Shown piece by piece: positions 37,210 through 56,342 of a DNA stretch of 64,000 nucleotides (position 1 is the first letter of the stretch; each line of letters opens with the position of its first letter). The position numbers were made by a program, and so were the translations under genes. Source of the stretch: a phage; NCBI GenBank assembly GCA_019326865.1, contig GCA_019326865.1_4101.1. One strand, written 5' to 3'. The notes under the pieces are model-generated. The model was not told the origin of the DNA, made no database searches, and saw only the letters and a list, made by a program, of their open reading frames with translations.

Positions 37210-37581
37210 ATGAATATAGATTTGAAAGGTGCAACCAGAACTGTTATCCTCATTGGTGAATACGCTATCAAGATTCCAACCTTCAAAAGCTGGAAGTTAT
37301 TCTTAACGGGAATGATAGCTAACCTAAATGAACGTTCGTGGATGCAGTACTCCAATCGTAGTGACAGTAGTATCTGTCCTACGTTGTGGTCATCATGTAC
37401 TGGACTAATAACTGTACAGAAACGTTGTAAGCCAGTACAACATAGGGGTTTATTTTGGGTGGAGTTGTGTGCTTTAGCATTGAATTCTGAGTTAAGTATT
37501 GACTTCTTCTATTCAGATGCGAAGCCAGAAAACTTTGGGTATCTGGGTGGTAAGTTAGTTAAACTTGATTATGGAGATTAA
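37210..37581 (+). CDS. hypothetical protein
   Basis: 123-aa ORF. Confidence 0.45.
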   Translation: MNIDLKGATRTVILIGEYAIKIPTFKSWKLFLTGMIANLNERSWMQYSNRSDSSICPTLWSSCTGLITVQKRCKPVQHRGLFWVELCALALNSELSIDFFYSDAKPENFGYLGGKLVKLDYGD

Positions 37582-37582
37582 T

Positions 37583-37852
37583 ATGTACGCATTGTATAAT
37601 AAAGAAAAGAAACAATTTGCTAAGGTTGAAATTTCGATTGATACATTTGATATGTTGGAGTACTGTATTGTAACGGACCCATGTGCTAACTTGTATTACG
37701 TTCATGATGACGTATCAGTACTGCAACGATTGCTTGAGAGTTCAAAAAGTCAATGTCAGGGAATCCATGATGGTTCATCCTATGAAACTCCTGAGTGTTC
37801 ATATGGCTGTCTGGATGGATATGAGATTGTTAAGTTAGGGATCGTTGAATAA
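37583..37852 (+). CDS. hypothetical protein
   Basis: SD GGAG before ATG 37583; track start 37565 rejected. Confidence 0.45.
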   Translation: MYALYNKEKKQFAKVEISIDTFDMLEYCIVTDPCANLYYVHDDVSVLQRLLESSKSQCQGIHDGSSYETPECSYGCLDGYEIVKLGIVE

Positions 37853-37868
37853 AGAAAAGGGTTGACTT

Positions 37869-37901
37869 TAGTCAGCCCTTTTTTCTATAATCATTTCATC
37901 G
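37869..37901 (+). promoter_or_regulatory. terminator-promoter cassette (PeSL-like)
   Basis: GGGTTGACTTTAGTCAGCCC + T6 + CTATAAT, then conserved CATTTCATC leader and GGAAGGAT SD. Confidence 0.6.
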
Positions 37902-37919
37902 GAACGGAAGGATGTTGAA

Positions 37920-38402
37920 ATGAACTATTTAGATTTAATTAATACGTATGTCATCAGCCCATATCTTAACGATGAAAGTATCAAATGTGTAGTATCTGTT
38001 GATAATCATCCAAATGGTGCATTAGAACTATTCGGTGCAGGACAGATTAACAATCGTTGTGGGTATACTTTTGAGTACTTACCAGAAAGAGATGTATTTG
38101 GTTGTTATGACCACAAAATCAAAAAAGGTGCTATATGGGGTAATCACAAAGATATTGCACAATCTTCACTTTTCGAAGATCATAATGGATATATGTGGCG
38201 TTCTCTTGGTGCAGTCCTACTTGATATCGCCCGTAGATATAAAAAGCGTATAACTCTTACTTATACACATACAGTTGAATATAAAAATGAAGTACAAGTA
38301 GAAGATGAAGAATTTTTTAAAAGTATCCCGTACATTGAATTCAACTTCCAAAACGGGTATGCTATATATCCTGATGATTTTATTGGTGAAAAATATTTTT
38401 AA
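37920..38402 (+). CDS. hypothetical protein
   Basis: 160-aa ORF downstream of cassette. Confidence 0.55.
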   Translation: MNYLDLINTYVISPYLNDESIKCVVSVDNHPNGALELFGAGQINNRCGYTFEYLPERDVFGCYDHKIKKGAIWGNHKDIAQSSLFEDHNGYMWRSLGAVLLDIARRYKKRITLTYTHTVEYKNEVQVEDEEFFKSIPYIEFNFQNGYAIYPDDFIGEKYF

Positions 38403-38493
38403 AAAATATTTGAAAAGAAAAGAATAAGTGCTATAATTATTACATCAAGACAACAAACACTAACATGTAAACGCTACTAATTAGGAGACACAC

Positions 38494-38904
38494 ATGATTA
38501 ACAAACATTTCGCAGTTTCTAAAACAGTAACCATCGATAACGAATGGGAAATTACTATTCTTAATGATCCTGCTCGTGGGTTGCTTGCAGAGAATCTTGT
38601 ACAGAAATACATCGACTGTAAGTCTGAATTGATTATTCACGACCGTACCAAATTTCTTCTCATCAATGGCAAGAAGTGTAAAGTATTAGTATTCACGGAT
38701 AAAATGAGCCGTGCAGACATTATCACCAAATTGGTAAGTTCTTCACGTCACCGCCCAGGAGTTAACAAATCTATCGAAGAAGTTAAAGATATGAAGCCTG
38801 GTGATTTATTCATTATTGCGGGTTTTGATTCTAAAACAAGAGAAATGTACATTTCAGAAATGTACACTAATGCTGAAATGCGTAACAAATTCTTCTCTAA
38901 CTAA
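38494..38904 (+). CDS. hypothetical protein
   Basis: 136-aa ORF. Confidence 0.5.
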   Translation: MINKHFAVSKTVTIDNEWEITILNDPARGLLAENLVQKYIDCKSELIIHDRTKFLLINGKKCKVLVFTDKMSRADIITKLVSSSRHRPGVNKSIEEVKDMKPGDLFIIAGFDSKTREMYISEMYTNAEMRNKFFSN

Positions 38905-38935
38905 TCAACCTAATTATGTATTATACAAATCTATA

Positions 38936-40153
38936 ATGGATAAAAATATGATCTTCGAAACAGAAAAAACTTTACTTGAAACTTATACTTTAGAAAATCT
39001 TGTACAACTTAATCTGGCCCGTCCTGATATTCAACGAAACTGGCAATGGAAAAGTAATAATCAAAATAATCTTATAATTTCTATTCTAAAGAATTCACCA
39101 ATTGGACAATTTTTGGTATGGAATGAAACTTCTTCAAATACAATGTACATTACTGATGGACGCCATCGTTATACTGTAATTTCAAACTTCATTAATAATA
39201 AGTTCCCAGTAACAGTTAAAACCGAAAGTGGAACCAAAGATTATTATTATGGTTCTGACGATCCAATCGAAGAAGAAAACATTTCACTAAAACTTGGTGG
39301 TAAAAGTAAGACTTGGAATTTCTTATCAAAAGAAGAGCGTAATGCTTTTCGCAATAAAGAAGTATCAGTAACATTTGTTCATACAGATGATGCTGAGAAG
39401 ATTTCTGAAATGTTTATGGCTATCAACACTGCTTCATCTAATTTGTGTAAAGTAGACTTGCTGGTATGCAAGCACCACAAAAATGCATACATGAAACGTA
39501 TTGATAAACTATTTTCAATTGAGATTGAAAAAGATGACCAAATGGCAGTTCTAGTTAGCGATTTCTATCGTGCAATCGGACACTGTAATGTCAACGGTAA
39601 TTACGAGAAACATTTAGCTAAACTTAAAGCTAACCCAAAAGTTCAGAAGCGTGAATTTTTTGAGATGTATTTTATGGTACGAGCCTTCACCAAATTGTGT
39701 CGTGATGCTTTAAACGATACATTGAATTCATATCGTATGCCTAAGATGAATAAACAAATTGAAGATGCTATTATTAGTACTGAATCACTGAGTGAACAGC
39801 AAGCTAACGCCGATTTTGTTCAGTTCGTGAATGCAGTTCGTGAGATGAACCTTGTATCTCCAATAAAAGATTTACAAAAGTTTCAATTCATCCACGAAGA
39901 TATGAAGAATACCTTTAACAAGCGTCTTTTTTGTATCTTAATGGGATTATATTATGCTTACGGTACACGTTTACCATTGCATTTTCGTGATGTTTGGTGT
40001 GCCATTTATAATGAAATGTCAGAAAAAAGTACTGAACTACCAACAAACGGGACTGATAGTTCTTCTGCTATTGTAGCTGGTATCCAATTGATTGAACCGT
40101 ACTTTAGTTCAGCCTTTAATAATATTTCATTGAGTGCTCGCGTGGGAAAGTGA
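38936..40153 (+). CDS. DUF262 (ParB/Srx-like) domain protein
   Basis: N-terminal ...PDIQRNWQWK...LIISILKNSPIGQFLVW...YITDGRHRYTVI matches the DUF262 pattern (DGxxR); track start 38801 trimmed to ATG 38936. Confidence 0.55.
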   Translation: MDKNMIFETEKTLLETYTLENLVQLNLARPDIQRNWQWKSNNQNNLIISILKNSPIGQFLVWNETSSNTMYITDGRHRYTVISNFINNKFPVTVKTESGTKDYYYGSDDPIEEENISLKLGGKSKTWNFLSKEERNAFRNKEVSVTFVHTDDAEKISEMFMAINTASSNLCKVDLLVCKHHKNAYMKRIDKLFSIEIEKDDQMAVLVSDFYRAIGHCNVNGNYEKHLAKLKANPKVQKREFFEMYFMVRAFTKLCRDALNDTLNSYRMPKMNKQIEDAIISTESLSEQQANADFVQFVNAVREMNLVSPIKDLQKFQFIHEDMKNTFNKRLFCILMGLYYAYGTRLPLHFRDVWCAIYNEMSEKSTELPTNGTDSSSAIVAGIQLIEPYFSSAFNNISLSARVGK

Positions 40154-40362
40154 AAAATCGTGGAATACTAAATATTTCACAAAAACAATATATTTTGAAA
40201 AAATATCCCGTTTGTTATCTTTGTAAACAATTTATATTAGATACAGATAAACCACACTTTGATCATGTACAGTCATTGAAAAATGGTGGTAGTAATGACC
40301 TAGAAAATATTAGACCAACGCACCCCATTTGTAATTTACGCAAAGGTGCTAAAAGTATGTAG
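40150..40362 (+). CDS. HNH endonuclease (small, overlapping upstream gene)
   Basis: CYLCKQ...HFDHVQSLKNGGSNDLENIRPTHPICNLRKG; GTG start overlaps upstream stop. Confidence 0.65.
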   Translation: MKNRGILNISQKQYILKKYPVCYLCKQFILDTDKPHFDHVQSLKNGGSNDLENIRPTHPICNLRKGAKSM

Positions 40363-40411
40363 AATAAAGACTCCCATTGACTGGGAGTCTTGTTATATTA
40401 AAAGGATTTAT

Positions 40412-41248
40412 ATGAGTATTAAAAATAAATTAGATCAGTATTATACAAAACCAGAGTATGCTGTAGATTGTTATACTAAATCATTAGAATTAATTTCTGA
40501 ACGTATGGATATTAGTTCATCGTATTTTATGGAACCATGTGTCGGTACTGGTTCATTTTATCTACAATTTCCTGAAGAACGTCGTTTTGGTTGTGATATC
40601 GAACCAGTACATCTTGATGAAAATGTTATACATTCTGATTTTTTGCTTGAGTTCGGGATTAATGCAAGAAGTAAAGGTGAGCCAATAATTGTTATAAGTA
40701 ATCCACCATTTGGTAAGATTTCTTCTTTGGCTATCAAATTCTTTAATAAATGTGCATCTATGCCTGAAGTGAAATATATTTGTTTTATTGTACCTAAGAC
40801 ATTCCGTAAAGTTGCAACACAGAATAAACTAAACGAGATGTTCCATCTTGTTCTTGATGAAGATTCACCACATGATGCTTTTATTCTGCATGGCGAACCG
40901 CATCATGTACCATGTGTATTTCAGATATGGGAGCGTAGAGATGAAGTTCGTGAACAACACGAAATTAAAAATAAATCAAACTACTTCCAGTTTTGTACTA
41001 AGGATGAAGCGGATATTTACATTAAGCGTGTAGGAACTAAAGCTGGTGAGTATGCTGCACCTGGTAAAGAACACAAAGATGCAAGTATGTACTACATTAA
41101 AACTGATTATGTTGATGAAATTATTAGAATTTTGCAAAGTGAAGACTACATTGACGAGATTAAACGTATACGCAAAACCACCGCTGGTGTATTCTGTGTA
41201 TCTAAATCTGAACTTGTACTGAACATTGAAAAACGTTTGAATTTTTAA
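40412..41248 (+). CDS. gamma-class amino (N6-adenine or N4-cytosine) DNA methyltransferase
   Basis: Motif order X-I-IV: DQYYTKPE, EPCVGTGSF, ISNPPFG; track start 40346 trimmed to ATG 40412 after hairpin. Confidence 0.7.
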   Translation: MSIKNKLDQYYTKPEYAVDCYTKSLELISERMDISSSYFMEPCVGTGSFYLQFPEERRFGCDIEPVHLDENVIHSDFLLEFGINARSKGEPIIVISNPPFGKISSLAIKFFNKCASMPEVKYICFIVPKTFRKVATQNKLNEMFHLVLDEDSPHDAFILHGEPHHVPCVFQIWERRDEVREQHEIKNKSNYFQFCTKDEADIYIKRVGTKAGEYAAPGKEHKDASMYYIKTDYVDEIIRILQSEDYIDEIKRIRKTTAGVFCVSKSELVLNIEKRLNF

Positions 41249-41254
41249 AATACA

Positions 41255-41287
41255 GGGTTGACTTAGGTCAGCCCTTTTTGCTAAAAT
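41255..41287 (+). promoter_or_regulatory. terminator-promoter cassette (PeSL-like)
   Basis: GGGTTGACTTAGGTCAGCCC + T5 + TAAAAT, leader TCTTTCATC, SD GTGAGGAT. Confidence 0.6.
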
Positions 41288-41315
41288 TCTTTCATCGAAA
41301 CGTGAGGATGAATAC

Positions 41316-41831
41316 ATGACACGCATTAACTTAGTACACGTTAAAGAACTTGCAGACCAACATCTGATGGCTGAATATCGTGAACTACCACGTGTATTTG
41401 GTGCTGTACAAAAACACGTTCAAGCACGTAAGCGTGTACGTGATTTCAAAATTAACAGTACTTATCTGTTAGGTTCAGGTCATGTGACATTCTTTTACGA
41501 CAAGTTGCTGTACTTACAGAAGCGTCATATCGATATTGTCAACGAATGTTTGCGTCGTGGTATGAAGATTCAAAATACTGAAGTAAACGACATTAGCAGC
41601 TTCCCTGCTGAGTTTTGTAATGACTATGTACCATCGGAGTCAGAGATTGAAATGTCTCGTAAGCGTTTGATTGAGAAGCTTCAGATGAAGCCTACGTGGT
41701 ATAAGTTTACTGATGTTGAATGTCCACAGTACGTTACAGATATGCTGAACGTAAGTAGTAAGTTCGAATATAGTACGGCTATGTTAGACGAAATTGAAGA
41801 ACAAATCAAAGATGAAATGAATAATTATTAA
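41316..41831 (+). CDS. denV: pyrimidine-dimer DNA glycosylase (T4 endonuclease V homolog)
   Basis: [35 protein letters not shown]...RVRDFKI...[10 protein letters not shown] closely matches T4 DenV as recalled; ~35-aa C-terminal extension. Confidence 0.9.
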
Positions 41832-41869
41832 AGGAAAGGATTGACTTCGGTCACATAAAGGAACATAAC

Positions 41870-42064
41870 ATGTTATTAGTATATTCAAAGCGTTTCTGGA
41901 TTTCTTTTATTGTACTATCGCTAATCGGCTTCGGTGTGAGTATACTCTTTTCGTGGGATGAATTGGGCACATGGTATTATGAAGTCCCGTGGTACATGAA
42001 GATAGCTCCTTGTTACGCGGCATTGTTCGTATCATTCCTTATTGTTGTCTTCAGCGAGGATTAG
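41870..42064 (+). CDS. small membrane protein
   Basis: 64 aa, two hydrophobic helices. Confidence 0.45.
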   Translation: MLLVYSKRFWISFIVLSLIGFGVSILFSWDELGTWYYEVPWYMKIAPCYAALFVSFLIVVFSED

Positions 42065-42599: not shown

Positions 42600-43373
42600 A
42601 TGAACCGTACAGAGAAAGCACTCCAAATTGAAAAGAACTTCAACTCCATGATGGCAGCACTGGAATGTCTTCTTGATACACAAACTAACTCGATCAACTC
42701 GCTGATCGTTTCTGGTAAAGGTGGTGTTGGTAAAACTTACAATGTTGACCAACGGTTACAGAAAGCTGATGACAACTTTGAAATCGACTACAAGAAAATC
42801 AGTGGTAAAGTAACTACTGTAGGTCTGTACGAAGCACTGTATCGTTCACGTCATGCTGCTTCAGTACTGTTACTTGACGACGTTGATATCTTCTCTGATG
42901 AAACGAATATTGATTTGCTTAAAGCTGTATTGGATACTTCTGAGAAGCGTGTAGTGTCTTATGCTACATCTGCGAAGTACCTGGAACAGCAGGGTATCCC
43001 TAAACAGTTTGAATTCCGTGGTAAAGTAATCTTTCTGACTAACAAAAATCTGTCACAGATTGCTAAAGGTAAAAGCAGTTTAGCACCACACATTGATGCA
43101 CTGATTACTCGTAGTATCTTTGTTGACCTGCAACTGTTCACCAACGAAGAAGTTATGATTCACATTGAGAATATCATGAACAAAACTAACATCCTTGAGA
43201 ACAATGGTGTTAACAAAAATGGTTGTAAAGCAATTTTGAACTGGATGTTGAGTAATGAAGATCGTCTGCGTTCACCTTCACTGCGTATGCCAGTACTGAT
43301 CGCTGGACTGTATAATAAATTCCCATATGATTGGGAGTCAATGGCAGAGAATATGTTCCTTGAGAAAAATTGA
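42600..43373 (+). CDS. P-loop NTPase with deviant Walker A (ParA/MinD-like?)
   Basis: SGKGGVGKT Walker A and hhhhDDVD Walker-B-like LLLDDVDI. Confidence 0.4.
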   Translation: MNRTEKALQIEKNFNSMMAALECLLDTQTNSINSLIVSGKGGVGKTYNVDQRLQKADDNFEIDYKKISGKVTTVGLYEALYRSRHAASVLLLDDVDIFSDETNIDLLKAVLDTSEKRVVSYATSAKYLEQQGIPKQFEFRGKVIFLTNKNLSQIAKGKSSLAPHIDALITRSIFVDLQLFTNEEVMIHIENIMNKTNILENNGVNKNGCKAILNWMLSNEDRLRSPSLRMPVLIAGLYNKFPYDWESMAENMFLEKN

Positions 43374-46952: not shown

Positions 46953-48089
46953 CCAAGGAAGTAACGAAGTTGGAATCTTGATAGGTATATTTGATGCAAC
47001 AACATCAGGAAAATTTGCATCTCCACAAACATACAAATTATCGATTTCGTCTATCAATAATGTATAGTTGTAACTTCTACAAAAACCACTTAAGACTCTT
47101 CCCTCTAATGCAGATAAATTCATTTCAGTGAATTGAGTGATATATGTTTCATTTGAACCAACACCACATTGACCATTAGCATTTATACCACAAGTAAGCA
47201 ATTTATTATTGTTTTGAATTACACATGATGGTCCAGCAAGGTTCGTACCTAGTTCACCTACAACATTAACTTCACCTTTTAATGATAAATTTGGGATCAC
47301 TGTACTCATTGGGACTCGAGATGTATTTCCGACACCTGCTTGCCCTGAGCCATTAGTGGATGCTACTTTAACAGTACCGTCATTAAGAAAAATATAAGAT
47401 GTTTCGATTGTATTAACTGCTTGAGTAGCTGATGTTATTGACGTATCCTGTTTGAATTTAAGTACATTTGTCGTTGTTGAACCAGAGATAAATGTAGCAC
47501 CTGCGTACCAATATGTTCCATCCTGGAGTACTAAACCAGTACTTCTAATTGAACACCCAGCACTTCGAACATTTTCTATATGACTATATGTAAAGGTTGA
47601 TACGATTGAAGATTCACCATTACCGAACACCCCACCAGTACCTGCACCACAGAAAAACCATTTACCGTTTTTCAAAAATACACGCATACAAGCAGAAATA
47701 ACCACACTATCAATATCACTTGCAGTTACACCAAAATCGGTAAATAAATGAGTTATATCAATCCAATTACCACCAGTATTTGATGGGAGATGTGGAATTA
47801 CAACTCTAGTCCCTGTGTACCAGATTGTATCATCATCTTTAATAACAAGCGTACCTTGAACACCACCCCAATACCTGGTTACATTAGTATTAACAAGTGT
47901 CCACTCATTAGATGATTCCGTTGAGCCATTACCACCTTGACCATATGATGATGAACCGCACCAGTATAAATTGCCATTTTTATTTAAATAAAATTTTGCA
48001 TCAGCCGAGCATTGTAATCTGTATTTGAATACGGTTTTTGGTGCTGGTGCAATATTTGCATACTTAATCATTCTTCCAAAAGGTAACAT
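46944..48089 (-). CDS. RCC1-like beta-propeller repeat protein, paralog 1
   Basis: N-terminus MLPFGRMIKYAN; blade-like motifs LYWCGSSSYGQGGNG, LLTCGINANGQCGVGSNE. Confidence 0.6.
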   Translation of the reverse strand: MLPFGRMIKYANIAPAPKTVFKYRLQCSADAKFYLNKNGNLYWCGSSSYGQGGNGSTESSNEWTLVNTNVTRYWGGVQGTLVIKDDDTIWYTGTRVVIPHLPSNTGGNWIDITHLFTDFGVTASDIDSVVISACMRVFLKNGKWFFCGAGTGGVFGNGESSIVSTFTYSHIENVRSAGCSIRSTGLVLQDGTYWYAGATFISGSTTTNVLKFKQDTSITSATQAVNTIETSYIFLNDGTVKVASTNGSGQAGVGNTSRVPMSTVIPNLSLKGEVNVVGELGTNLAGPSCVIQNNNKLLTCGINANGQCGVGSNETYITQFTEMNLSALEGRVLSGFCRSYNYTLLIDEIDNLYVCGDANFPDVVASNIPIKIPTSLLPWKK

Positions 48090-48162
48090 AATTTCTCTCC
48101 TTCATTCATTATACTGTATTTAACCCAATTAAGAAAAGCCAGTATCAAGTACTGGTATTTTA

Positions 48163-49512
48163 TTATTGTAATGGAATTTCAGTGAGTGTTTTATATGTAC
48201 TTCCGTTATACACCCCTCTCCAATATACTTTACCATCAGTACTAACCACTAATAATCCATATGTTGTAAACCCAAGAGTACCACCAACATACATAGCATC
48301 TTTGATTCTAATACCAATGTCTTCATATGTAAATGACGCGACTGCACCCGCTTGCCATGAAGGACTAGCGTAGTAATCACTATAAACACCATGTGCTTTA
48401 TATATTGATGTTGTTCCTGGTTCAAAAATTACAGTTCCACAGTAGTTCATTCGTATTTTAGTACTGGATGAAGTTGGTACATTTATACCTACGTCATCTT
48501 TTATCCCTGTGGTTAGGACGTTAAAACCACCCGCCACACGGTTGACGTCATTCGCACCGATTAAATACATACCAACGTTGTAGCCCATATAAAACACACT
48601 AGAGCTTCCATTCCAGAAAGAAAAACCACCACCATTCCCACAGCGATATAGTTGTGAATTTGAGCAGTACATCATACCTTCGTTTGTCGCATCAAATTCA
48701 TCTGCTTTTCCTATTGTAGCTACTGTAGTCCAAGTTTTAATTACTTGGTTTGTACTAGCTGGTGTTTGTATACCATATCGTATATTATACCCTTTACCGA
48801 CTATTGTACCATCTTCTAATTTGGCATAAAGTACAGGTCTATTACCAACAAAATACATATTATTGTGTGACATGTCTATTGTGCATCTTAATGAAACTAC
48901 TTTTTGTTTCAATTGATTATCTTTAGTAAAAGAAGTAAAGTAGTAATCTGATGTTGAGTTGTTTATTAAACCTTGTATTGACAACCCCATATACCAGATT
49001 TCTCCATTACTGTTCAATGCTGCCAAAATACAACTATATTTTGAAGTATATGCTGGGGTTACTGATGTTGCTGGTCCTTTATCATATCCACCACAGAATA
49101 CCATCTCCACAACTTCACCCACGTTAGCAAAATAAGAAGATACATTGATAAAACCATTTGTTATAAAAGGTGCTGTATTTATACTTGAATGTGTGAATAT
49201 CCCATTTGCATATACACCACAAAAATGATATGAACCATCATTATCTTGGACTATTATTCCATTTGATAGTAACCAAAAATTGTTTACATTTTTTCTTACT
49301 AATTCGATTCCTGCCCCATTAGTTGGCGTTATACCAAAAGAAACATATTTTGTTTGACCAATTCCATATAAATTTCCATTTGATGCTAATATTGCACCAA
49401 ACCAATTACCACCACCATTCTTGTTATGACCCATACCTATAGAATCAAATTTCTTAACAGTAGGAGCTTGTACTTTGTTCCCATAATTCACCATTCTTCC
49501 AAAAGGTAACAT
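48163..49512 (-). CDS. RCC1-like beta-propeller repeat protein, paralog 2
   Basis: N-terminus MLPFGRMVNYGN; G/S/T/N-rich repeats. Confidence 0.55.
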   Translation of the reverse strand: MLPFGRMVNYGNKVQAPTVKKFDSIGMGHNKNGGGNWFGAILASNGNLYGIGQTKYVSFGITPTNGAGIELVRKNVNNFWLLSNGIIVQDNDGSYHFCGVYANGIFTHSSINTAPFITNGFINVSSYFANVGEVVEMVFCGGYDKGPATSVTPAYTSKYSCILAALNSNGEIWYMGLSIQGLINNSTSDYYFTSFTKDNQLKQKVVSLRCTIDMSHNNMYFVGNRPVLYAKLEDGTIVGKGYNIRYGIQTPASTNQVIKTWTTVATIGKADEFDATNEGMMYCSNSQLYRCGNGGGFSFWNGSSSVFYMGYNVGMYLIGANDVNRVAGGFNVLTTGIKDDVGINVPTSSSTKIRMNYCGTVIFEPGTTSIYKAHGVYSDYYASPSWQAGAVASFTYEDIGIRIKDAMYVGGTLGFTTYGLLVVSTDGKVYWRGVYNGSTYKTLTEIPLQ

Positions 49513-49584
49513 ATTTCCCTCCTTTATTCATTATACTATATTTAATACTAAAAGAAAAAGCCAGTATCAAGTACTGGCATTATG

Positions 49585-50694
49585 TCATTTTGGTAAATTA
49601 ATTTTAGTAAAGGCTGCAACATCCTCGATTGCACCAGGAATTGCGTAATACGATCCAGTACTATATACATCTCCGTCTTTGGTTAATATTGATGTTAAAC
49701 CATCACTAAAAAGAACATCCCTAATCTCACTAACTTCAACGGGTAATTGTAAATTAGTAGCACTATATATTGCACCAGTTTGAGAATTGTTTAATCCCAA
49801 ACCACGGTTCGCCCCAACACCCTTCTGATATGTACTAGTAATTACCATTTGTGTAGCAGTATTTAAGGCAGGTGAATTCGTCATAAACAACGGTGAACTA
49901 TTAGGCAAAGTACTTGCAGGAACTGCACGAAATGTAGTTGTATCTGAACTAAGAAAGTTTGGCGTTTGACCACATACGAAATATGATGTACCATTATAGT
50001 AATTAAATGCATTACCACCAATGACTGCATCGATTACACCAGAGCTACGTAATCCCCACGTGTTAATTTGTGTTCGGTTCCCCGTGCCATGCTGACCCCT
50101 GTCATTCCACCCAGAACTATATAACTTATTATCTAATGTAATATACATACTGTCATTTGCATTCGTCATTACTTTACGCACATTAGTAGCACATTGAGTT
50201 AATGTGTAAATTGATGATGAACCAATACCTAAAGCACCACGATATCCATTAGCTCCTGCACCATAGAGTACTGAACTAGTGCTAAGTACAAATATTAAAC
50301 CATACGAACATACAATATTAGCAATTTCACTCACTGGTATAGCACTGGTAAACCAATTAGTTCTTTCAACTAATACTGTGCTGTAAGAAGTAGTTGTAGA
50401 CGATGTGAACCAATATGTTTCCCCTGATGTCCATATAGTATTATCATTTTTAATAATAACAAGTGCACGATCACCTACGAAAAAATTAGAAACATCTGCA
50501 CTTACTAATATCCATGAAGATACCGTGTTTTTATTACCATTTCCAGATTCACCACCTTGATTTCTACCTATGTAATATAAATCATGTGAATCAGTTAATA
50601 AGAATTGACCCTGTGTAGATGCACCAACTTTAATTATATTTTTAGGACCAGGTACAATATTCCCATAATCAAACATTCTTACAAAAGGTAACAT
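49585..50694 (-). CDS. RCC1-like beta-propeller repeat protein, paralog 3
   Basis: Start set to MLPFVRMFDYGN after SD GGAG; motifs YYIGRNQGGESGNG, YSSGWNDRGQHGTGN. Confidence 0.6.
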   Translation of the reverse strand: MLPFVRMFDYGNIVPGPKNIIKVGASTQGQFLLTDSHDLYYIGRNQGGESGNGNKNTVSSWILVSADVSNFFVGDRALVIIKNDNTIWTSGETYWFTSSTTTSYSTVLVERTNWFTSAIPVSEIANIVCSYGLIFVLSTSSVLYGAGANGYRGALGIGSSSIYTLTQCATNVRKVMTNANDSMYITLDNKLYSSGWNDRGQHGTGNRTQINTWGLRSSGVIDAVIGGNAFNYYNGTSYFVCGQTPNFLSSDTTTFRAVPASTLPNSSPLFMTNSPALNTATQMVITSTYQKGVGANRGLGLNNSQTGAIYSATNLQLPVEVSEIRDVLFSDGLTSILTKDGDVYSTGSYYAIPGAIEDVAAFTKINLPK

Positions 50695-50768
50695 AACTAA
50701 AATCTCCATATAATAATTATAATGTATTTACAAAAAAATACCAGTACGTATTTCAGTACTGGTATCAT

Positions 50769-51950
50769 TTATGGTAAAATGATAGATTGTAACGAACTCA
50801 TACCCAATGCTGGAACACTAGCCTGTGGTGCTGGAGAATTCAATTTTGGTGATGAAACCGCATATGACATTCCTGAACCCAAATCTGGATCAAAAACTAC
50901 AGCACAATAATTCCCACTATATATAAGTCCATTCTTGTATCCTTGTGCACTTTGAATGCATTTCGTGAACGTACCAATATCTGTCGTGGCATTTATTAAG
51001 TTCCTCCCACGATAACCGCAGGTGTATATGAAATTATCATCGCCTATGTACATACTAGAATCCCCAGAAGAACTACATAGATACGACATATAAGCACGCA
51101 TGTTTTTAGGAGCAACTGACAATGTACCTGCATAGAATTTATTATTCGAACCCGTAATATCACCATCACCCAATGCACCAAAACTTCCCCAGCCAGTACC
51201 GTAATATCTCTTATCACTCAAAAATATAATACAGTTGTTATTACACATCTTGATTTGATATATCAATGAAGGATCAACCCCAGGGAATGATTCAGTGAAT
51301 GTTAGAACAGCCGGATCAGTACTAGCATTACATTGATGATATGTATTAGTACCAGCGGACAAGATTGTTCCATTAGCTAACAGAATTCTCGCAGTACCAG
51401 TACCAGCAGTACAAGCAACTGCACTTCCTGCACTTCCGGTGTATATTTGTCTGAAAGTAAAGAAACCAACAGTTTTACTTCCCTGCCCACTCCAACCAGT
51501 ATTATCAACTCCACACGCCCATACTGAACCATCTTGCATGATCATCATTACACCAAAGCGTTCTATTGAAATATAAACAATCTTCGTTGTATCAACTGCA
51601 CTAAATCTAGAAGTTATATCAGTCCATACCTTAACACTTACCGCCGTCGCACTGGAAGTAGGATCTTCACCAGCTATCATTATCCTCCCATTGTTAGTAA
51701 GATACATTGTCTGACTATAACCAGTACTACAAAACTTAACACTATCAGTCTCTGGAACTTTTAACCACTCGTTGTAACGTGTTACGTTAGTGTTATTACC
51801 TAACTGATAATAGTTATTCATCCCAGATACATATAACACACCATCCTTTATTAAACTATAAGTCGCACTATAGTCACTACAGGTATAACGTGTACCCACA
51901 GGTCGCTCAACGACGTTCCCGTACTTAACCATTCTCCCAAAAGGTAACAT
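50769..51950 (-). CDS. RCC1-like beta-propeller repeat protein, paralog 4
   Basis: N-terminus MLPFGRMVKYGN; YVSGMNNYYQLGNNTN. Confidence 0.6.
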   Translation of the reverse strand: MLPFGRMVKYGNVVERPVGTRYTCSDYSATYSLIKDGVLYVSGMNNYYQLGNNTNVTRYNEWLKVPETDSVKFCSTGYSQTMYLTNNGRIMIAGEDPTSSATAVSVKVWTDITSRFSAVDTTKIVYISIERFGVMMIMQDGSVWACGVDNTGWSGQGSKTVGFFTFRQIYTGSAGSAVACTAGTGTARILLANGTILSAGTNTYHQCNASTDPAVLTFTESFPGVDPSLIYQIKMCNNNCIIFLSDKRYYGTGWGSFGALGDGDITGSNNKFYAGTLSVAPKNMRAYMSYLCSSSGDSSMYIGDDNFIYTCGYRGRNLINATTDIGTFTKCIQSAQGYKNGLIYSGNYCAVVFDPDLGSGMSYAVSSPKLNSPAPQASVPALGMSSLQSIILP

Positions 51951-52023
51951 ATTTTCCTCCTTTATTCATTATACTATATTTAATACAAAAAGAAATGCCA
52001 GTATCAAGTACTGGCATATTAAT

Positions 52024-53172
52024 TCATTGTATAAATGACATATCTACTTCTGTATAATTAAGAACGTTCTGTCCAGAAATACCACCCATTACTACTATTG
52101 CAAGGCCACAATAATATAATTTTCCAGTATCCGTAAGTATAAGTGATCCAGATGGACTGCGTACCAAATCACACGAACTATTAAAAGAAGTATAAGAAGG
52201 AGTATAGGAGTACTGATTATTATTATTACCAACACCTAATTGCCCAAACCCATTCGATCCAGAAGCATATAGAACTTCATCTGCTTTGACAATATGTGAT
52301 GCCATGTTACCAACACAAGTATATAGAGTATAAACTCCTGAACTCAATAATGTCGGAGTTTTATATTGTATATCTGTAGATGTAGAAGTACCACCTGTAC
52401 CAAATTCGTTCCCATATTGTGCACCGAACTGTTTACCACAAGCGTACAAATTATTATCCGATTTGATAAAAAATGTACTCTGATAACTTACATTAAAATC
52501 TATAACATCCGAAGAAATCATCGTCACCCCAGTAATAGAAGTTTGATTACCCGTGCCCAACTGGTAGTAATAGTTAAAACCACAACCCCATAAAGTATTA
52601 TCTTCTCGCAAATAAATGTTACCAACTGCCTTTTTAACCGAAGTTATAGTATCTACTCTTTTGAATGTGTTAAAAGAATTAATGTTTGTACCATCACCAA
52701 ATGATGATATGTTCGATATATTGTTAACTCCACAACAATACAATGTACCATCTTTTGTTATCAAATTCACCTTCATATCATAAAAACTACTCATGTATTT
52801 TATATCAGAAACATTAACACCACTTGATGTTATCCACGTAGTACAGTCCGTCCACAAAGTTTTTCTATCAGTTACACCAGTGAATGCCTTCGTGTTACCA
52901 GTGATAAAAACTTTTCCAGTACCTTTCTCTTCATACAATTGACAATCACTACTGTTATCTTCCAATAGAACTCGTTTAACATTCTCCGCACAAAGAATAA
53001 ATTTACTCGATGCTACACCTGTACCAGTACCCCAATTCGTCGCAGAAGATGCATACAACTTATCAGTATAAGTATCATGAAGATACATAGAATCACTGGA
53101 ATATATTTTAAAACGCCCTTCTTTCTCAGGTATAATATTCCCGTACTTAACCATTCTCCCAAAAGGTAACAT
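52024..53172 (-). CDS. RCC1-like beta-propeller repeat protein, paralog 5
   Basis: N-terminus MLPFGRMVKYGN; LWGCGFNYYYQLGTGNQTS, YASGSNGFGQLGVGNN. Confidence 0.65.
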   Translation of the reverse strand: MLPFGRMVKYGNIIPEKEGRFKIYSSDSMYLHDTYTDKLYASSATNWGTGTGVASSKFILCAENVKRVLLEDNSSDCQLYEEKGTGKVFITGNTKAFTGVTDRKTLWTDCTTWITSSGVNVSDIKYMSSFYDMKVNLITKDGTLYCCGVNNISNISSFGDGTNINSFNTFKRVDTITSVKKAVGNIYLREDNTLWGCGFNYYYQLGTGNQTSITGVTMISSDVIDFNVSYQSTFFIKSDNNLYACGKQFGAQYGNEFGTGGTSTSTDIQYKTPTLLSSGVYTLYTCVGNMASHIVKADEVLYASGSNGFGQLGVGNNNNQYSYTPSYTSFNSSCDLVRSPSGSLILTDTGKLYYCGLAIVVMGGISGQNVLNYTEVDMSFIQ

Positions 53173-53214
53173 ATCCCCTCCTTATTCATTATATCATATT
53201 TACCCAAAAAACAC

Positions 53215-53243
53215 TTGACACCCTTTCAGTACTGTTGTACGAT
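53215..53243 (+). promoter_or_regulatory. sigma70-type promoter for small-ORF array (diverges from RCC1 array)
   Basis: TTGACA-N17-TACGAT, spacer CCCTTTCAGTACTGTTG. Confidence 0.5.
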
Positions 53244-53268
53244 AGAAGGAATATTAGGAGAACTACAC

Positions 53269-53496
53269 ATGACAAATACCCTTAAGTACTACCTCAATAC
53301 TCTGCCCGACCTAGAGTACGGGAAGTTTCTCGCAGATAGTTCGTGGCTGATTGAGCTAAAAACACATAACAGCCCTGGATGCACCCTTATGATGAACAAT
53401 GCAATTGATACCCTTATAGTGAGTATTTTACATAGCAATATCTACGAGGATAACAATAAACAATTAACAAAAATCTTAGTACTGCTATCTCTATGA
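53269..53496 (+). CDS. micro-protein array member (75 aa)
   Basis: SD AGGAG before ATG 53269; KYYLNTLPD ... LVLLSL. Confidence 0.5.
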   Translation: MTNTLKYYLNTLPDLEYGKFLADSSWLIELKTHNSPGCTLMMNNAIDTLIVSILHSNIYEDNNKQLTKILVLLSL

Positions 53497-53705
53497 ACAC
53501 TATGAGCACTGAACAGTTCTACATCAATGCACTACCAACTAAAAGTCTTCAAGAAAGCTTACTGTATACACAAAAGAATTTTAAAAACTTCAAACGTTGC
53601 CCTAAACTACTGAACTCGTACAGGAATAATATTATAAGAAATGTTTTACAAGGAGAAGAAAGTATGCAATACTATCACATCCTTATCCTTATATTGGAGT
53701 ACTAA
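53493..53705 (+). CDS. micro-protein array member (70 aa)
   Basis: EQFYINALP ... ILILILEY; ATGA overlap. Confidence 0.5.
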   Translation: MNTMSTEQFYINALPTKSLQESLLYTQKNFKNFKRCPKLLNSYRNNIIRNVLQGEESMQYYHILILILEY

Positions 53706-53706
53706 T

Positions 53707-53916
53707 ATGAATACTGAACATAAAGAATTCTACACCAAATACCTCAGTAACGAAGAACAATTGTTTCTAAGAAGTGTATCACCTGTAAGTACCAATACTC
53801 AATTCGGTAGAGATTGCTTTAATAATTGTATACGTAGTACCCTAGAAGCTATCGAATACAATAACAAAAATATTATGTACTCAGGTTTAATAGGACTAAT
53901 ATTCTTCTATGAATAA
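53707..53916 (+). CDS. micro-protein array member (69 aa)
   Basis: MNTEHKEFYTKYL; TAAtATG junction. Confidence 0.55.
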   Translation: MNTEHKEFYTKYLSNEEQLFLRSVSPVSTNTQFGRDCFNNCIRSTLEAIEYNNKNIMYSGLIGLIFFYE

Positions 53917-54103
53917 TCATAAAGATTTCTATGGTAGTAAACTACACAAACATGAACAGCTATCATTCTCTTTAGCACCACCTATGAGAAAGGATAATCT
54001 ATATTATAATTACGATTTCAGGATGGCGACACGTTATGCAATAGAACATCAGTTCCCTGAAACTAAGTACCGCTCTATCCTGAACCTCATCTTTAAGTTC
54101 TAA
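53909..54103 (+). CDS. micro-protein array member (64 aa)
   Basis: MNNHKDFYGSKL ... LNLIFKF. Confidence 0.55.
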   Translation: MNNHKDFYGSKLHKHEQLSFSLAPPMRKDNLYYNYDFRMATRYAIEHQFPETKYRSILNLIFKF

Positions 54104-54150
54104 AAACCGCACCAGGGTCCGAGTACTTTAACATAGTAAGGCTAATTACA

Positions 54151-54336
54151 ATGAATCACATAAGCTACTACTACCAACAACTATCCGACAGAGACAAGTA
54201 CAGCCACAATTCCCATGTATGGTACTACAAACGCGGCAGTATAAGAGACAAACAACATTACTTCTGTATTTCTATTAAAGAAGCACTAACAACTAAGTAC
54301 ACGTACAGAGCAGTACTTAAACTAATCTCTATCTAA
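54151..54336 (+). CDS. micro-protein array member (61 aa)
   Basis: MNHISYYYQQL ... LKLISI. Confidence 0.5.
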   Translation: MNHISYYYQQLSDRDKYSHNSHVWYYKRGSIRDKQHYFCISIKEALTTKYTYRAVLKLISI

Positions 54337-54344
54337 GGAATACT

Positions 54345-54524
54345 ATGCAAGAATTCTATATAGAACATATAACCATAAAAGACCGTTTCATGTACGACAC
54401 CTTCGTGAAATACTACAAACTGGGAACAAAAAGTACTAAAAATATTAATCTCAATAGCTGCATACACCAAGCACTAACAAAAGATAATCCCTTCAGGGAA
54501 ATCCTCGCTCTCGCATCTGTATAA
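54345..54524 (+). CDS. micro-protein array member (59 aa)
   Basis: MQEFYIEHI ... ILALASV; below track cutoff. Confidence 0.45.
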   Translation: MQEFYIEHITIKDRFMYDTFVKYYKLGTKSTKNINLNSCIHQALTKDNPFREILALASV

Positions 54525-54534
54525 AGGAAACCAA

Positions 54535-55194
54535 ATGAAACTTAATCAACACAGCAAACAATACCTTAAACACTTTAAGTACCTCAACAGTATTCAAGCA
54601 GAATCTTTTACACCAGCATATACGTATCACCCAAATGTACTAAAGAAACGAAATAAAAAGAAAAAATCCAGAAATGTTCTCGTATCTAAGAACCTCAAAT
54701 CGTACTTGAAGAAAAATAATATAGCTCTTGCTTTTATTAATATCTATAATACTGATTTAAAAGTATTGAGTACTAATACCAGCACAAAAGCACTAAAGAA
54801 TGCATCTATCTATATACACATGGATAATATCCCGTGCACTATAATTCTATCTTCCGGGAATGTATACTTCTTCGGGAATTGTAATAGCACCCATGATATC
54901 AGTACTGCACAATTCCAAATCGGAGATATGTACTGCATGGGTTCAGAAAAAATACACGATAACATGCACTTCTTCCAAAAGCAACGTACTAACGAAACTG
55001 ATACAGTACTGCAATTCCTCAAAGAATTACAAAACAAAGAATTATCCGAGGAAGAAGAATTCATGTACAGTACTGTAATCGATAATCCAGGACTCTATAA
55101 AAACGCGTACAAACTAACAAAACATGTACAGGAACTTATCAGTACTGATAAGAAATTCCATCACCTCATTACGTATATTTCAAACTATGTATAA
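54535..55194 (+). CDS. hypothetical protein inside micro-protein array, C-terminal EEEFMYSTV motif
   Basis: 219 aa; basic N-terminal region. Confidence 0.5.
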   Translation: MKLNQHSKQYLKHFKYLNSIQAESFTPAYTYHPNVLKKRNKKKKSRNVLVSKNLKSYLKKNNIALAFINIYNTDLKVLSTNTSTKALKNASIYIHMDNIPCTIILSSGNVYFFGNCNSTHDISTAQFQIGDMYCMGSEKIHDNMHFFQKQRTNETDTVLQFLKELQNKELSEEEEFMYSTVIDNPGLYKNAYKLTKHVQELISTDKKFHHLITYISNYV

Positions 55195-55369: not shown

Positions 55370-55370
55370 T

Positions 55371-55550: not shown

Positions 55551-55558
55551 CACATAAT

Positions 55559-55747: not shown

Positions 55748-55748
55748 T

Positions 55749-55937: not shown

Positions 55938-55946
55938 GAGAACAAT

Positions 55947-56132: not shown

Positions 56133-56133
56133 T

Positions 56134-56319: not shown

Positions 56320-56342
56320 CTAATATACAGACACTAACTAAT

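What the first reader, a model, noticed from the sequence alone, without database searches (positions are those of the whole stretch)
38936..41248. DUF262 protein, small HNH nuclease and gamma-class DNA methyltransferase module beside denV
A DUF262/ParB-like ORF (YITDGRHRYTVI) is followed in an overlapping frame by a 70-aa HNH ORF (HFDHV...GG...N...H..CN). This is the domain pair found fused in GmrSD-type modification-dependent nucleases, here split. Immediately downstream is an amino-methyltransferase with motifs DQYYTKPE, EPCVGTGSF and NPPF. A phage-borne nuclease plus methyltransferase set next to a DNA-repair gene could be a restriction-like or anti-restriction module, possibly tied to DNA modification; the split may also be a frameshift or decay.
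Basis: partly seen in the sequence, partly recalled or inferred. Interest (0 to 1): 0.7.

Follow-up and report, generated by a model that had tools for sequence, protein, structure and literature searches.

The report
Frameshift-joined phage nuclease gene plus methyltransferase
In this giant E. coli phage, the apparently separate DUF262 and HNH genes are most likely one gene whose nuclease tail is made only when the ribosome slips back one base at a conserved slippery site, so a GmrSD-like DNA-cutting enzyme is produced in small, fixed amounts beside a DNA methyltransferase.

Summary
A DUF262 ORF (38936-40153), a 70-codon HNH ORF in the -1 frame (40150-40362), an amino-methyltransferase (40412-41248) and denV (41316-41831) are all present.

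The DUF262/HNH split is neither decay nor two ordinary genes. The DUF262 ORF ends in G_GGA_AAG-stop. This is the lambda G/GT slippery heptamer, one of the three best -1 motifs in E. coli.

- The heptamer is invariant in nine lineages, down to 22% protein identity.
- HNH always lies in the -1 frame.
- Several relatives have no start codon before the HNH zinc-binding CxxC motif.
- Single-ORF DUF262-HNH proteins exist and align collinearly with the conceptual fusion.

I conclude, from comparative evidence only, that a programmed -1 frameshift yields a 405-aa nuclease-less protein and a minor 475-aa GmrSD-like nuclease.

The genes lie in a 3.4-kb accessory island flanked by promoter/hairpin repeats. 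The island is absent from 121Q and most relatives. A small partner gene, orfB, travels with the nuclease.

The methyltransferase is adjacent in 7 of 10 nuclease lineages, but elsewhere it is mostly an orphan phage or prophage enzyme. A true restriction-modification pairing is therefore unproven.

I found no published link between frameshifting and DUF262/GmrSD/HNH genes. Biological role is inferred.

The parts
37850..37923 (+). Left copy of a 74-nt hairpin + promoter + RBS element (PeSL-like) bounding the island
   Evidence: It is a direct repeat of 41246-41319, 78% identical, spaced 3396 nt apart. 121Q has a single copy between gp216 and denV. Promoter-like TTGACT-18-TATAAT lies at 37862-37891. 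The hairpin core occurs 7 times in the window against 0 expected.
37920..38402 (+). orfA, 160 aa, unknown function; first gene of the island
   Evidence: ORF listed. It has no Pfam, PHROG, PADLOC or NCBIfam match. It is also present in ph0011.
38410..38437 (+). Promoter-like site ahead of orfB
   Evidence: TTGAAA-16-TG-TATAAT, 11 of 12 matches. This is a consensus match only.
38494..38904 (+). orfB, 136 aa; conserved small partner gene immediately upstream of the DUF262 gene
   Evidence: A homolog sits upstream of the nuclease gene in ph0011, L003, L005, L008 (BLASTP E 4e-14), L010/L013 and GAP32. L009 has a different small ORF there. No family match was found. The AF2 model is weak (pLDDT 65) and fold hits are not significant.
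38936..40153 (+). Zero-frame ORF: ParB-like DUF262 NTPase domain plus helical DNA-binding (ParBDB-like) region, 405 aa. The start is either 38936 or the ATG at 38948, which relatives use.
   Evidence: Pfam GmrSD_N 1.1e-17. PADLOC NsnA 1.3e-12 over residues 29-337. AF2 pLDDT 80, pTM 0.75. Foldseek top hit is BrxU 7p9k at E 2e-4, probability 1.0. QR and DGxxR motif residues Q33, R34, D74 and R78 are invariant.
40144..40150 (+). Slippery heptamer G_GGA_AAG, the proposed -1 frameshift site
   Evidence: It is in the zero-frame register. It is invariant in 9 lineages with 22-87% protein identity, and it is the only GGGAAAG in each gene. The codon-choice null gives a joint p of about 1e-15 over 7 lineages. 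It is a known high-efficiency E. coli motif and the lambda G/GT site (PMC4066793, PMC5009743, PMC3296357).
40151..40153 (+). Zero-frame stop (TGA) directly after the heptamer
   Evidence: The stop lies 0 codons after the heptamer in 7 of 9 lineages (TGA, TAA or TAG), and 1 and 6 codons after it in L005 and L003.
40160..40180 (+). Possible weak stimulatory hairpin, 8 bp, 9 nt 3' of the heptamer
   Evidence: It is predicted in the window and in ph0011. Pairing is 87.5% across 4 lineages against 56% or less when the partners are slid, and 2 pairs show changes on both sides. With only 4 sequences this is not significant. L009 and L012 have stronger hairpins at spacers of 7 and 4 nt. L011 and L014 have none.
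40150..40362 (+). -1-frame segment encoding the HNH nuclease domain (70 codons), read as a C-terminal extension to give a 475-aa fusion
   Evidence: Pfam HNH 2.3e-10. C427, C430, D443, H444, N458, H463, C466 and N467 of the fusion are invariant. dN/dS is 0.14-0.30 in this frame. The fusion aligns collinearly with single-ORF DUF262-HNH proteins. Profile hits in the PDB include the HNH endonuclease 4h9d and the Cas9 HNH domain.
40367..40391 (+). Hairpin between the HNH stop and the methyltransferase start (terminator-like, weak T tail)
   Evidence: It is kept in the four window-group lineages, with sequence changes. It is absent in L011/L013 (12-nt gap) and in GAP32 (overlap).
40412..41248 (+). 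Gamma-order amino-methyltransferase (motif X-like DQYYT, motif I EPCVGTGSF, motif IV NPPF), 278 aa
   Evidence: phrog_5172 3e-88, phrog_799 4e-11. PADLOC MTase_II 1e-34. Precomputed Pfam Mtase_EDM2 on homologs. Invariant motif residues are shown.
41246..41319 (+). Right copy of the hairpin + promoter element, now driving denV
41316..41831 (+). denV (pyrimidine-dimer glycosylase); a conserved backbone gene, not part of the island
   Evidence: Pfam Pyr_excise 1e-14 and phrog_1183 6e-59. It is conserved at 92-96% in 38 relatives that lack the island.

Best explanation
The DUF262 ORF and the HNH ORF are one recoded gene.

**Mechanism (inferred from comparative evidence).** Most ribosomes terminate at the TGA at 40151. 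This gives a 405-aa protein made of a ParB-like DUF262 NTPase domain and a helical DNA-binding region, with no nuclease. A minority slip back one base on G_GGA_AAG (40144-40150) and continue into the HNH frame. This gives a 475-aa DUF262-HNH protein with the domain logic of GmrSD/BrxU type IV restriction enzymes. The minority is probably of the order of a percent to a few percent, by analogy with lambda G/GT and reporter data. Frameshifting thus fixes a low ratio of nuclease-bearing to nuclease-less chains. This plausibly limits toxicity and allows mixed oligomers.

**Setting (shown).** The gene sits with a small co-evolving partner (orfB) and usually an NPPF amino-methyltransferase. All lie in a 3.4-kb early-promoter-flanked accessory island, gained by recombination between dispersed promoter/hairpin elements upstream of denV.

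**Function (inferred).** I think it most likely a phage-borne restriction-type nuclease that discriminates DNA by modification state and is used against rival phages, or against host DNA.
- About 0.35: it is modification-dependent like its GmrSD relatives, and the methyltransferase is a linked but independent anti-restriction enzyme.
- About 0.3: the methyltransferase marks the phage's own DNA against it (see rivals).
For: **Recoding**
1. The heptamer is in register at the very end of the ORF in the window, ph0011, L003/4, L005-7, L008, L009, L010/11/13, L012 and GAP32 (L014). The preceding codon varies (GTG, TCG, GAG), and protein identity falls to 22%.
2. Even granting a conserved Gly-Lys, the codon choice has a joint p of about 1e-15.
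3. HNH is always in the -1 frame, and that frame opens only 1-9 codons upstream of the heptamer.
4. A GTG start exists only in the window and ph0011. L003/L005 have GCC and the others GTA. L009, L012 and the more distant L100 have no ATG, GTG or TTG before the CxxC zinc ligands.
5. Synonymous changes (GGA/GGT/GGG, CAA/CAG, TAT/TAC) begin immediately 3' of the heptamer. dN/dS of the HNH segment is 0.14-0.30.
6. All five 50%-identity clusters of this family found among 1.84 billion representatives show the signal.
7. Of 79 more distant DUF262 proteins, 9 carry HNH in the same chain at the C-terminus. The conceptual fusion aligns with them through the junction.
8. L100 has A_AAG-TAA, the best E. 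coli tetramer motif, with HNH again in the -1 frame.
9. G_GG.A_AA.G is among the three most efficient E. coli motifs (PMC4066793) and is lambda's G/GT site (PMC3296357).

**GmrSD-like nature:**

**Island:**

**orfB linkage:**
Against: - No trans-frame protein has been observed. All evidence is comparative.
- No RNA stimulator is conserved across all lineages. Local hairpins exist in only some. Without stimulators this motif gave only about 0.3% in reporters (PMC4066793).
- In the window itself, a GTG overlapping the stop (GTGA) could allow termination-reinitiation, so both routes may operate here.
- L003, L005, L008, L011 and L014 have an in-frame start 3-12 codons before CxxC. That start could give a truncated free HNH.
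- On function: the substrate and modification dependence of the nuclease are untested. The methyltransferase's target (DNA or RNA, and which sequence) is unknown, and its best PDB sequence-profile hits are weak METTL5-like RNA m6A enzymes.
Confidence: 0.72

Rival explanations
1. These are two ordinary genes joined by translational coupling. HNH is made as a free 70-aa protein from the GTG at 40150, which overlaps the DUF262 stop (GTGA). It then acts in trans with the DUF262 protein, like the separate GmrS and GmrD subunits.
For: The window and ph0011 have GTG in the GTGA overlap. GmrSD is known both as two proteins and as one (PMC4619093 abstract). L099 has a separate 157-aa HNH gene beside a distant DUF262 gene.
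Against: The GTG is replaced by GCC or GTA in seven other lineages. Three lineages (L009, L012, L100) have no canonical start before the zinc-binding CxxC. This model gives no reason for nucleotide-level conservation of G_GGA_AAG. There is no Shine-Dalgarno sequence at a workable distance.
Confidence: 0.12
2. The module is a phage-borne restriction-modification-like system. The methyltransferase marks phage DNA as self. The DUF262-HNH enzyme cuts unmarked DNA (host chromosome or co-infecting phages), or, like SspE, uses the mark to tell self from non-self.
For: The methyltransferase is adjacent in 7 of 10 nuclease lineages and in two gene orders (L009 has it upstream). The HNH stop and the methyltransferase start are 12 nt apart in L011/L013 and overlap in GAP32, so they share an operon. 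The Menshen paper raises the idea that ParB-DUF262 proteins paired with solitary methylases may target non-modified genomes (PMC12065111). That chlorella viruses use virus-encoded R-M to degrade host DNA is from my own knowledge; PMC4619093 states only that such viruses carry restriction systems.
Against: L008, L012 and L100 show no methyltransferase in the flanks available. Of the 80 best viral methyltransferase loci, 78 lack the nuclease, and so do the closest prophage homologs. The methyltransferase is 71% identical between the window and L011 while the nuclease is only 22% identical. All characterised single-chain DUF262 nucleases cut modified DNA, not unmodified DNA.
Confidence: 0.3
3. 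The island is a selfish homing cassette. DUF262-HNH cuts the empty gp216|denV site of related phages, and the island is copied in by repair.
For: The island is present in the window and ph0011 but absent from 121Q and 37 other relatives. The same slot holds a 137-aa HNH gene in JP4 and others. GAP32 has further HNH genes on both sides. The nuclease module is found in differing gene neighbourhoods.
Against: The island carries five genes, far more than a homing endonuclease needs. The flanking 74-nt repeats of a dispersed promoter/hairpin element already explain gain and loss by homologous recombination (PMC2839356). An NTPase sensor domain plus frameshift-limited nuclease dosage fits a regulated restriction enzyme better. 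No known homing endonuclease has a DUF262 domain (from my own knowledge).
Confidence: 0.1
4. The split is a frameshift mutation or sequencing error in a once-fused gene, and the HNH part is decaying.
For: Fused single-ORF relatives exist.
Against: The same -1 offset occurs at the same heptamer in ten independent assemblies, including two finished GenBank genomes. HNH is under purifying selection, with all catalytic residues invariant.
Confidence: 0.02

Closest known systems
GmrSD / BrxU / Eco94GmrSD type IV restriction enzymes
   Same: Both have an N-terminal ParB/Srx-fold DUF262 NTPase domain with QR and DGxxR motifs, a helical middle region and a C-terminal His-Me-finger nuclease. BrxU is the best structural and PDB-sequence match. 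GmrSD is also known in split and fused forms (PMC4619093).
   Different: The nuclease here is canonical HNH (PF01844), not DUF1524. It is attached through a -1 frameshift. The gene is carried by a lytic jumbo phage, not a bacterial defence island. Modification dependence is untested.
Lambda G/GT tail-chaperone frameshift (also dnaX tau/gamma and IS3 OrfA/OrfAB)
   Same: Both use the identical slippery heptamer G_GGA_AAG and a -1 shift near the end of the upstream ORF. This produces a fixed low ratio of a long C-terminally extended product to a short one (PMC3296357, PMC5009743).
   Different: The protein family and role are entirely different (nuclease, not assembly chaperone, clamp loader or transposase). 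Here the zero-frame stop directly abuts the heptamer in most lineages, and no universal RNA stimulator was found.
Single-ORF DUF262-HNH proteins (e.g. P0033, P0011, P0040, P0099; phrog_29172)
   Same: They share the domain order and a C-terminal HNH, and they are collinear with the conceptual fusion.
   Different: They are encoded in one frame, they are only about 20-23% identical, and they have no frameshift site.
Menshen NsnA, SspE and PD-T4-2 (ParB-DUF262 + ParBDB sensors)
   Same: The window protein matches the PADLOC NsnA model over residues 29-337, and also HEC-05 and PD-T4-2_A. This is the architecture described as ParB-DUF262 + ParBDB in PMC12065111.
   Different: No NsnB ATPase, NsnC effector or Ssp modification genes are present. 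The effector here is an HNH tail on the same chain.
Orphan phage/prophage N6-adenine methyltransferases (rV5-type; Pfam Mtase_EDM2-like)
   Same: The window methyltransferase is 61-64% identical to prophage enzymes that have no nuclease partner. GAP32_519 is annotated as similar to the rV5 methyltransferase.
   Different: In this jumbo-phage clade it is fixed next to the recoded nuclease gene.

Membership tests
GmrSD-family type IV restriction enzyme | N-terminal DUF262 (ParB/Srx fold) with QR and DGQ(Q/H)R NTP-binding motifs | tested here: met
   PF03235 at 1.1e-17, above its cutoff. Q33, R34, D74 and R78 are invariant. BrxU is the top fold hit.
GmrSD-family type IV restriction enzyme | C-terminal DUF1524 (PF07510) nuclease domain in the same protein or an adjacent GmrD subunit | tested here: not met
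   No DUF1524 hit at E<=1. The nuclease is PF01844 HNH. This is the same His-Me-finger superfamily (PMC4619093) but a different family.
GmrSD-family type IV restriction enzyme | Cleaves only modified (hmC, glc-hmC or 5mC) DNA, stimulated by NTP | not testable with these tools
   This requires enzymology.
GmrSD-family type IV restriction enzyme | Encoded by the host as an anti-phage defence | tested here: not met
   It is located in Asteriusvirus-like and Mimasvirus jumbo phage genomes.
Programmed -1 ribosomal frameshift | X_XXY_YYZ heptamer in the zero-frame register | tested here: met
   GTG GGA AAG TGA gives G_GGA_AAG at 40144-40150.
Programmed -1 ribosomal frameshift | Site conserved at the nucleotide level among divergent homologs | tested here: met
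   It is invariant in 9 lineages, with joint codon-choice p of about 1e-15. A tenth lineage (L100) keeps A_AAG-stop.
Programmed -1 ribosomal frameshift | Downstream -1 ORF encodes a conserved domain and lacks its own initiation signal | tested here: met
   L009, L012 and L100 have no canonical start before CxxC. Caveat: the window and ph0011 do have a GTG.
Programmed -1 ribosomal frameshift | Stimulatory element (upstream SD-like sequence or 3' structure) | tested here: inconclusive
   No structure is conserved across all lineages. Lineage-specific hairpins lie 4-9 nt downstream in the window/ph0011, L009 and L012 but not in L011 or L014. The stop codon is adjacent in 7 of 9 lineages.
Programmed -1 ribosomal frameshift | Trans-frame protein detected | not testable with these tools
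   This requires a western blot, mass spectrometry or ribosome profiling.
Gamma-class N6-adenine DNA methyltransferase | Motif order X - I (FxGxG-like) - IV ((N/D)PP(Y/F)), with the target-recognition region C-terminal | tested here: met
   DQYYT at residues 8-12, EPCVGTGSF at 41-49 and NPPF at 97-100. All are invariant in 15 homologs.
Gamma-class N6-adenine DNA methyltransferase | Substrate is DNA adenine | not testable with these tools
   PADLOC MTase_II 1e-34 and phrog_799 support DNA. The weak PDB profile hits are METTL5/Ta1320-like.
Type II-like restriction-modification pair | Nuclease and methyltransferase obligatorily linked | tested here: not met
   The methyltransferase is adjacent in 7 of 10 nuclease lineages. 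Only 2 of 80 methyltransferase loci carry the nuclease. Prophage homologs occur alone.
Free-standing HNH homing endonuclease | Presence/absence polymorphism at a fixed intergenic site between close relatives | tested here: met
   Recombination between the flanking repeats explains this equally well.
Free-standing HNH homing endonuclease | Cuts the cognate empty site and is over-transmitted in crosses | not testable with these tools
   This requires phage crosses.

The most novel reading that the evidence does not exclude
A conserved programmed -1 frameshift sets the dose of the nuclease domain of a phage-encoded GmrSD-like enzyme. To my knowledge this would be the first recoding event in a restriction-type nuclease. 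The two isoforms, together with orfB and the methyltransferase, would form a phage-carried self/non-self DNA discrimination system used in conflict between phages. Frameshift efficiency depends on tRNA-Lys modification state for this same heptamer in lambda (PMC3296357), so it could act as a physiological throttle on nuclease activity.
Probability: 0.3. Interest if true: 0.8.

Novelty: new variant of a known kind. Interest (0 to 1): 0.62.

Why it matters
- **New frameshift case.** Well-supported -1 frameshifts in bacteria and their phages are few, mainly tail chaperones, dnaX and IS transposases. This would add one in an unrelated, enzymatic gene family. It is supported by unusually clean comparative evidence and uses the very heptamer that lambda uses.
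- **Annotation.** Published genomes (ph0011, GAP32) left the HNH region unannotated. It is in fact the catalytic tail of the upstream 'hypothetical' DUF262 protein.
- **Biology.** Jumbo phages carry restriction-type nucleases of the kind bacteria use against phages, apparently with built-in dosage control. This suggests a testable model of phage-versus-phage, or phage-versus-host, DNA warfare.
- **Experimental handle.** The nuclease-less to nuclease-bearing ratio can be changed by silent mutations.

Tried and rejected
- A scan of viral contigs with the DUF262 family alignment failed because no stretch was conserved enough. I used exact-protein contig look-ups and a methyltransferase-based scan instead.
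- A shared 3' RNA stimulator across lineages was not found.
- Transcriptional slippage is rejected: the site has no homopolymer run of 8 or more, only 3 G and 3 A.
- Sequencing error and pseudogene are rejected.
- The orfB AF2 model is weak (pLDDT 65). Foldseek hits are scattered nuclease-like folds at E>=0.006, and the apparent PD...DxK pattern is not conserved in the alignment, so I make no call.
- The small ORF upstream of the nuclease in L009 is not an orfB homolog (hhalign probability 0.1).
- The methyltransferase has no direct PDB sequence homolog.
- Rfam shows nothing above threshold in 37500-42000.
- Neighbouring genes of the nuclease loci that lack the methyltransferase (L008, L012, L100) have no Pfam methyltransferase.
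- Literature searches linking DUF262, GmrSD or HNH with frameshifting returned nothing relevant.
Full report
**What is there.** The window comes from an Asteriusvirus-like jumbo coliphage of the 121Q/PBECO4 group. In the reported interval I find the following, all on the + strand:
- a 405-aa DUF262 ORF at 38936-40153 (Pfam GmrSD_N 1.1e-17);
- a 70-codon HNH ORF at 40150-40362 (Pfam HNH 2.3e-10), overlapping the DUF262 stop as GTGA in the -1 frame;
- a hairpin at 40367-40391;
- a 278-aa amino-methyltransferase at 40412-41248, with DQYYT, EPCVGTGSF and NPPF (phrog_5172 3e-88; PADLOC MTase_II 1e-34);
- denV at 41316-41831.

**The island.** Only Escherichia phage ph0011 shares the whole stretch (84% nucleotide identity). 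The other 38 matching records align only to denV. In 121Q, gp216 is followed directly by denV. In the window, a 3396-bp segment is bounded by 74-nt direct repeats at 37850-37923 and 41246-41319 (78% identical). Each repeat consists of a GC-rich hairpin, a TTGACT-18-TATAAT promoter, an RBS and a start codon. 121Q has one copy. The hairpin core occurs seven times on the + strand of the window, against none expected. These resemble the promoter/stem-loop cassettes (PeSLs) that mediate modular shuffling in T4-type phages (PMC2839356, PMC4122927). The same slot holds a 137-aa HNH gene in JP4 and others. Proximity to denV therefore reflects an insertion hot spot, not a functional tie to repair.

**The split is a conserved -1 frameshift site.** The DUF262 ORF ends GTG GGA AAG TGA, that is G_GGA_AAG followed by a stop. 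A -1 slip gives GGG AAA and then GTG AAA AAT..., which is exactly the HNH frame.

I recovered every relative I could:
- close ones (P0002-P0004; loci L001 and L003-L007);
- all four other 50%-identity clusters found in an exhaustive HMMER search of 1.84 billion representatives (P0005-P0008; loci L008-L012);
- two jumbo-phage contigs found through the methyltransferase (L013, and L014, which is Cronobacter phage GAP32).

The findings across these nine lineages, whose DUF262 proteins are 87% to 22% identical, are:
- The gene ends in G_GGA_AAG. The codon before it varies (GTG, TCG, GAG), but always supplies the leading G.
- The C-terminal Gly-Lys are two of only 26 invariant residues.
- The zero-frame stop follows immediately in seven lineages (TGA, TAA or TAG), and after 1 and 6 codons in the other two.
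- The -1 frame opens only 1-9 codons upstream and encodes HNH.
- Given each gene's own codon usage, the chance of NNG-GGA-AAG in seven lineages is about 1e-15, even if Gly-Lys is taken as fixed. Shared ancestry makes this approximate, but synonymous sites are saturated at these distances.

**HNH cannot generally be a separate gene.** The GTG start is present only in the window and ph0011. It is GCC in L003/L005 and GTA in the others. In L009 and L012 there is no ATG, GTG or TTG anywhere between the upstream -1-frame stop and the first zinc-binding cysteine. In the remaining lineages the first start lies 3-12 codons before CxxC, downstream of a conserved basic stretch.

Synonymous substitutions in the HNH frame begin directly after the heptamer. 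The HNH segment has dN/dS 0.14-0.30 in its own frame, against 0.56-3.1 in the other two frames. Its Cys, Asp-His, Asn and His-x-x-Cys-Asn residues are invariant.

A more distant DUF262 gene (L100; E 8.5e-7 to the window protein) ends GCA AAG TAA. HNH is again in the -1 frame, and again without a start codon. It keeps the A_AAG tetramer plus stop.

Single-ORF proteins with DUF262 at the N-terminus and HNH at the extreme C-terminus are common among more distant relatives: 9 of 79 by Pfam, and also phrog_29172. The conceptual 475-aa fusion aligns collinearly with them through the junction.

G_GG.A_AA.G is one of the three most efficient -1 motifs in E. coli. It gives about 0.3% without stimulators and up to a few percent in a good 3' context (PMC4066793; PMC5009743). 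It is also the lambda G/GT site (PMC3296357).

I found no RNA structure conserved across all lineages. Local hairpins do start 4-9 nt after the heptamer in:
- the window and ph0011 (40160-40180, two compensatory pairs, not significant with four sequences);
- L009 (z = -4.8);
- L012 (z = -2.9).

L011 and GAP32 have none. Frameshift efficiency is therefore unknown and may differ between lineages. In the window, reinitiation at the overlapping GTG could add to it.

**What the protein is.** AlphaFold2 on the family alignment gives pLDDT 80 and pTM 0.75. The model has an N-terminal alpha/beta domain followed by a long helical region. The best PDB fold match is BrxU, a GmrSD-family type IV restriction enzyme (E 2e-4, probability 1.0), followed by ParB-N/Noc domains. 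A profile of the fusions hits BrxU in its N-terminal part, and HNH endonucleases and the Cas9 HNH domain in its C-terminal part. PADLOC matches NsnA (Menshen) over residues 29-337, and also HEC-05 and PD-T4-2_A. This is the ParB-DUF262 + ParBDB sensor architecture shared by GmrSD, SspE and Menshen (PMC12065111). The long isoform thus works like a GmrSD-type enzyme. It fails the family's defining DUF1524 test, because it carries PF01844 HNH, and it is phage-encoded.

**Partners.** A 136-155-aa protein, orfB (38494-38904), lies directly upstream of the nuclease gene in the window group, L008 (E 4e-14), L010/L013 and GAP32. L009 has an unrelated small ORF there. orfB diverges as fast as the nuclease, and its function is unknown.

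The methyltransferase is adjacent in 7 of 10 nuclease lineages. It lies downstream in most and upstream in L009, and it is separated from HNH by 12 nt or overlaps it in L011/L013/GAP32. Several facts count against an obligatory pairing:
- It is 71% identical between the window and L011, while the nuclease is only 22% identical.
- Its family has at least 354 viral relatives, and only 2 of the best 80 carry the nuclease.
- Its closest bacterial homologs are lone prophage genes.
- L008, L012 and L100 show no methyltransferase in the flanks available.

**Most likely mechanism.**
- Shown: the domain identities, the island structure, and the conserved slippery site with the HNH frame relationship.
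- Inferred: ribosomes shift -1 at G_GGA_AAG in a minority of passes. The phage therefore makes mostly a nuclease-less DUF262 protein and a little DUF262-HNH. The low, fixed ratio limits self-damage and may allow mixed oligomers.
- More weakly inferred: the enzyme discriminates DNA by modification. Given what its characterised relatives do, the fast divergence of nuclease plus orfB next to a stable methyltransferase, and its occurrence without a methyltransferase, I lean slightly (about 0.35) to a type IV-like weapon against rival modified-DNA phages, with a linked anti-restriction methyltransferase. A true methyltransferase-protected restriction system comes next (about 0.3), then a homing cassette (about 0.1).

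**Novelty.** I found no paper linking DUF262, GmrSD or HNH genes with ribosomal frameshifting. The GenBank records for ph0011 and GAP32 leave the HNH segment unannotated. The components and the recoding mechanism are each known, but their combination is new. I rate it a new variant of a known kind.

Noticed in passing
window 19881, 27999, 30796, 33345, 37858, 41254, 42538 (+ strand): A dispersed 22-nt hairpin, AGGGTTGACTTNGGTCAGCCCT, overlaps a TTGACT promoter -35 box. It occurs 7 times against 0 expected. It looks like a PeSL-type promoter/terminator cassette that could drive modular gene shuffling in this jumbo phage.
   Followed up: partly
window 37853-41315; L002 (121Q) 3996-4062; L102 (JP4) 3100-3513; L001 (ph0011) 2034-2447: The slot between the gp216 homolog and denV is an insertion hot spot. 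It is empty in 121Q. It holds a 137-aa HNH gene in JP4 and several others, that HNH gene plus the island in ph0011, and the island alone in this window.
   Followed up: partly
window 4194-9119: A tRNA cluster of 7 genes includes two tRNA-Gly(UCC). This tRNA reads GGA, the P-site codon of the slippery heptamer, and can wobble-pair with GGG after the slip. No tRNA-Lys lies in the window.
   Followed up: no
L101 (GAP32, JN882285) 1078-1857 and 4778-5692: In Cronobacter phage GAP32 the recoded nuclease/methyltransferase module is itself flanked by two further HNH-domain genes, GAP32_516 and GAP32_520. This suggests a nuclease-rich variable region.
   Followed up: no
L099 1384-1857 (- strand): A distant DUF262 gene (P0010) is followed by a convergent, separately encoded 157-aa HNH gene. 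This is a third way (separate gene) of pairing the two domains, besides fusion and frameshift.
   Followed up: no
window 40412-41248: A profile of the methyltransferase family gives its best, though weak, PDB sequence hits to METTL5/Ta1320-type NPPF rRNA m6A methyltransferases. Relatives also occur in giant-virus contigs (GVMAG). The DNA-versus-RNA target is not settled by sequence.
   Followed up: partly
window ~47000-56500: GC skew turns negative over about 10 kb, indicating a block of genes on the opposite strand.
   Followed up: no
window 42600-43373: A conserved AAA-like ATPase (phrog_1250 at 6e-100; annotated as an ATPase-AAA-core protein in ph0011) lies just downstream of denV, after another copy of the hairpin/promoter element at 42538.
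   Followed up: no
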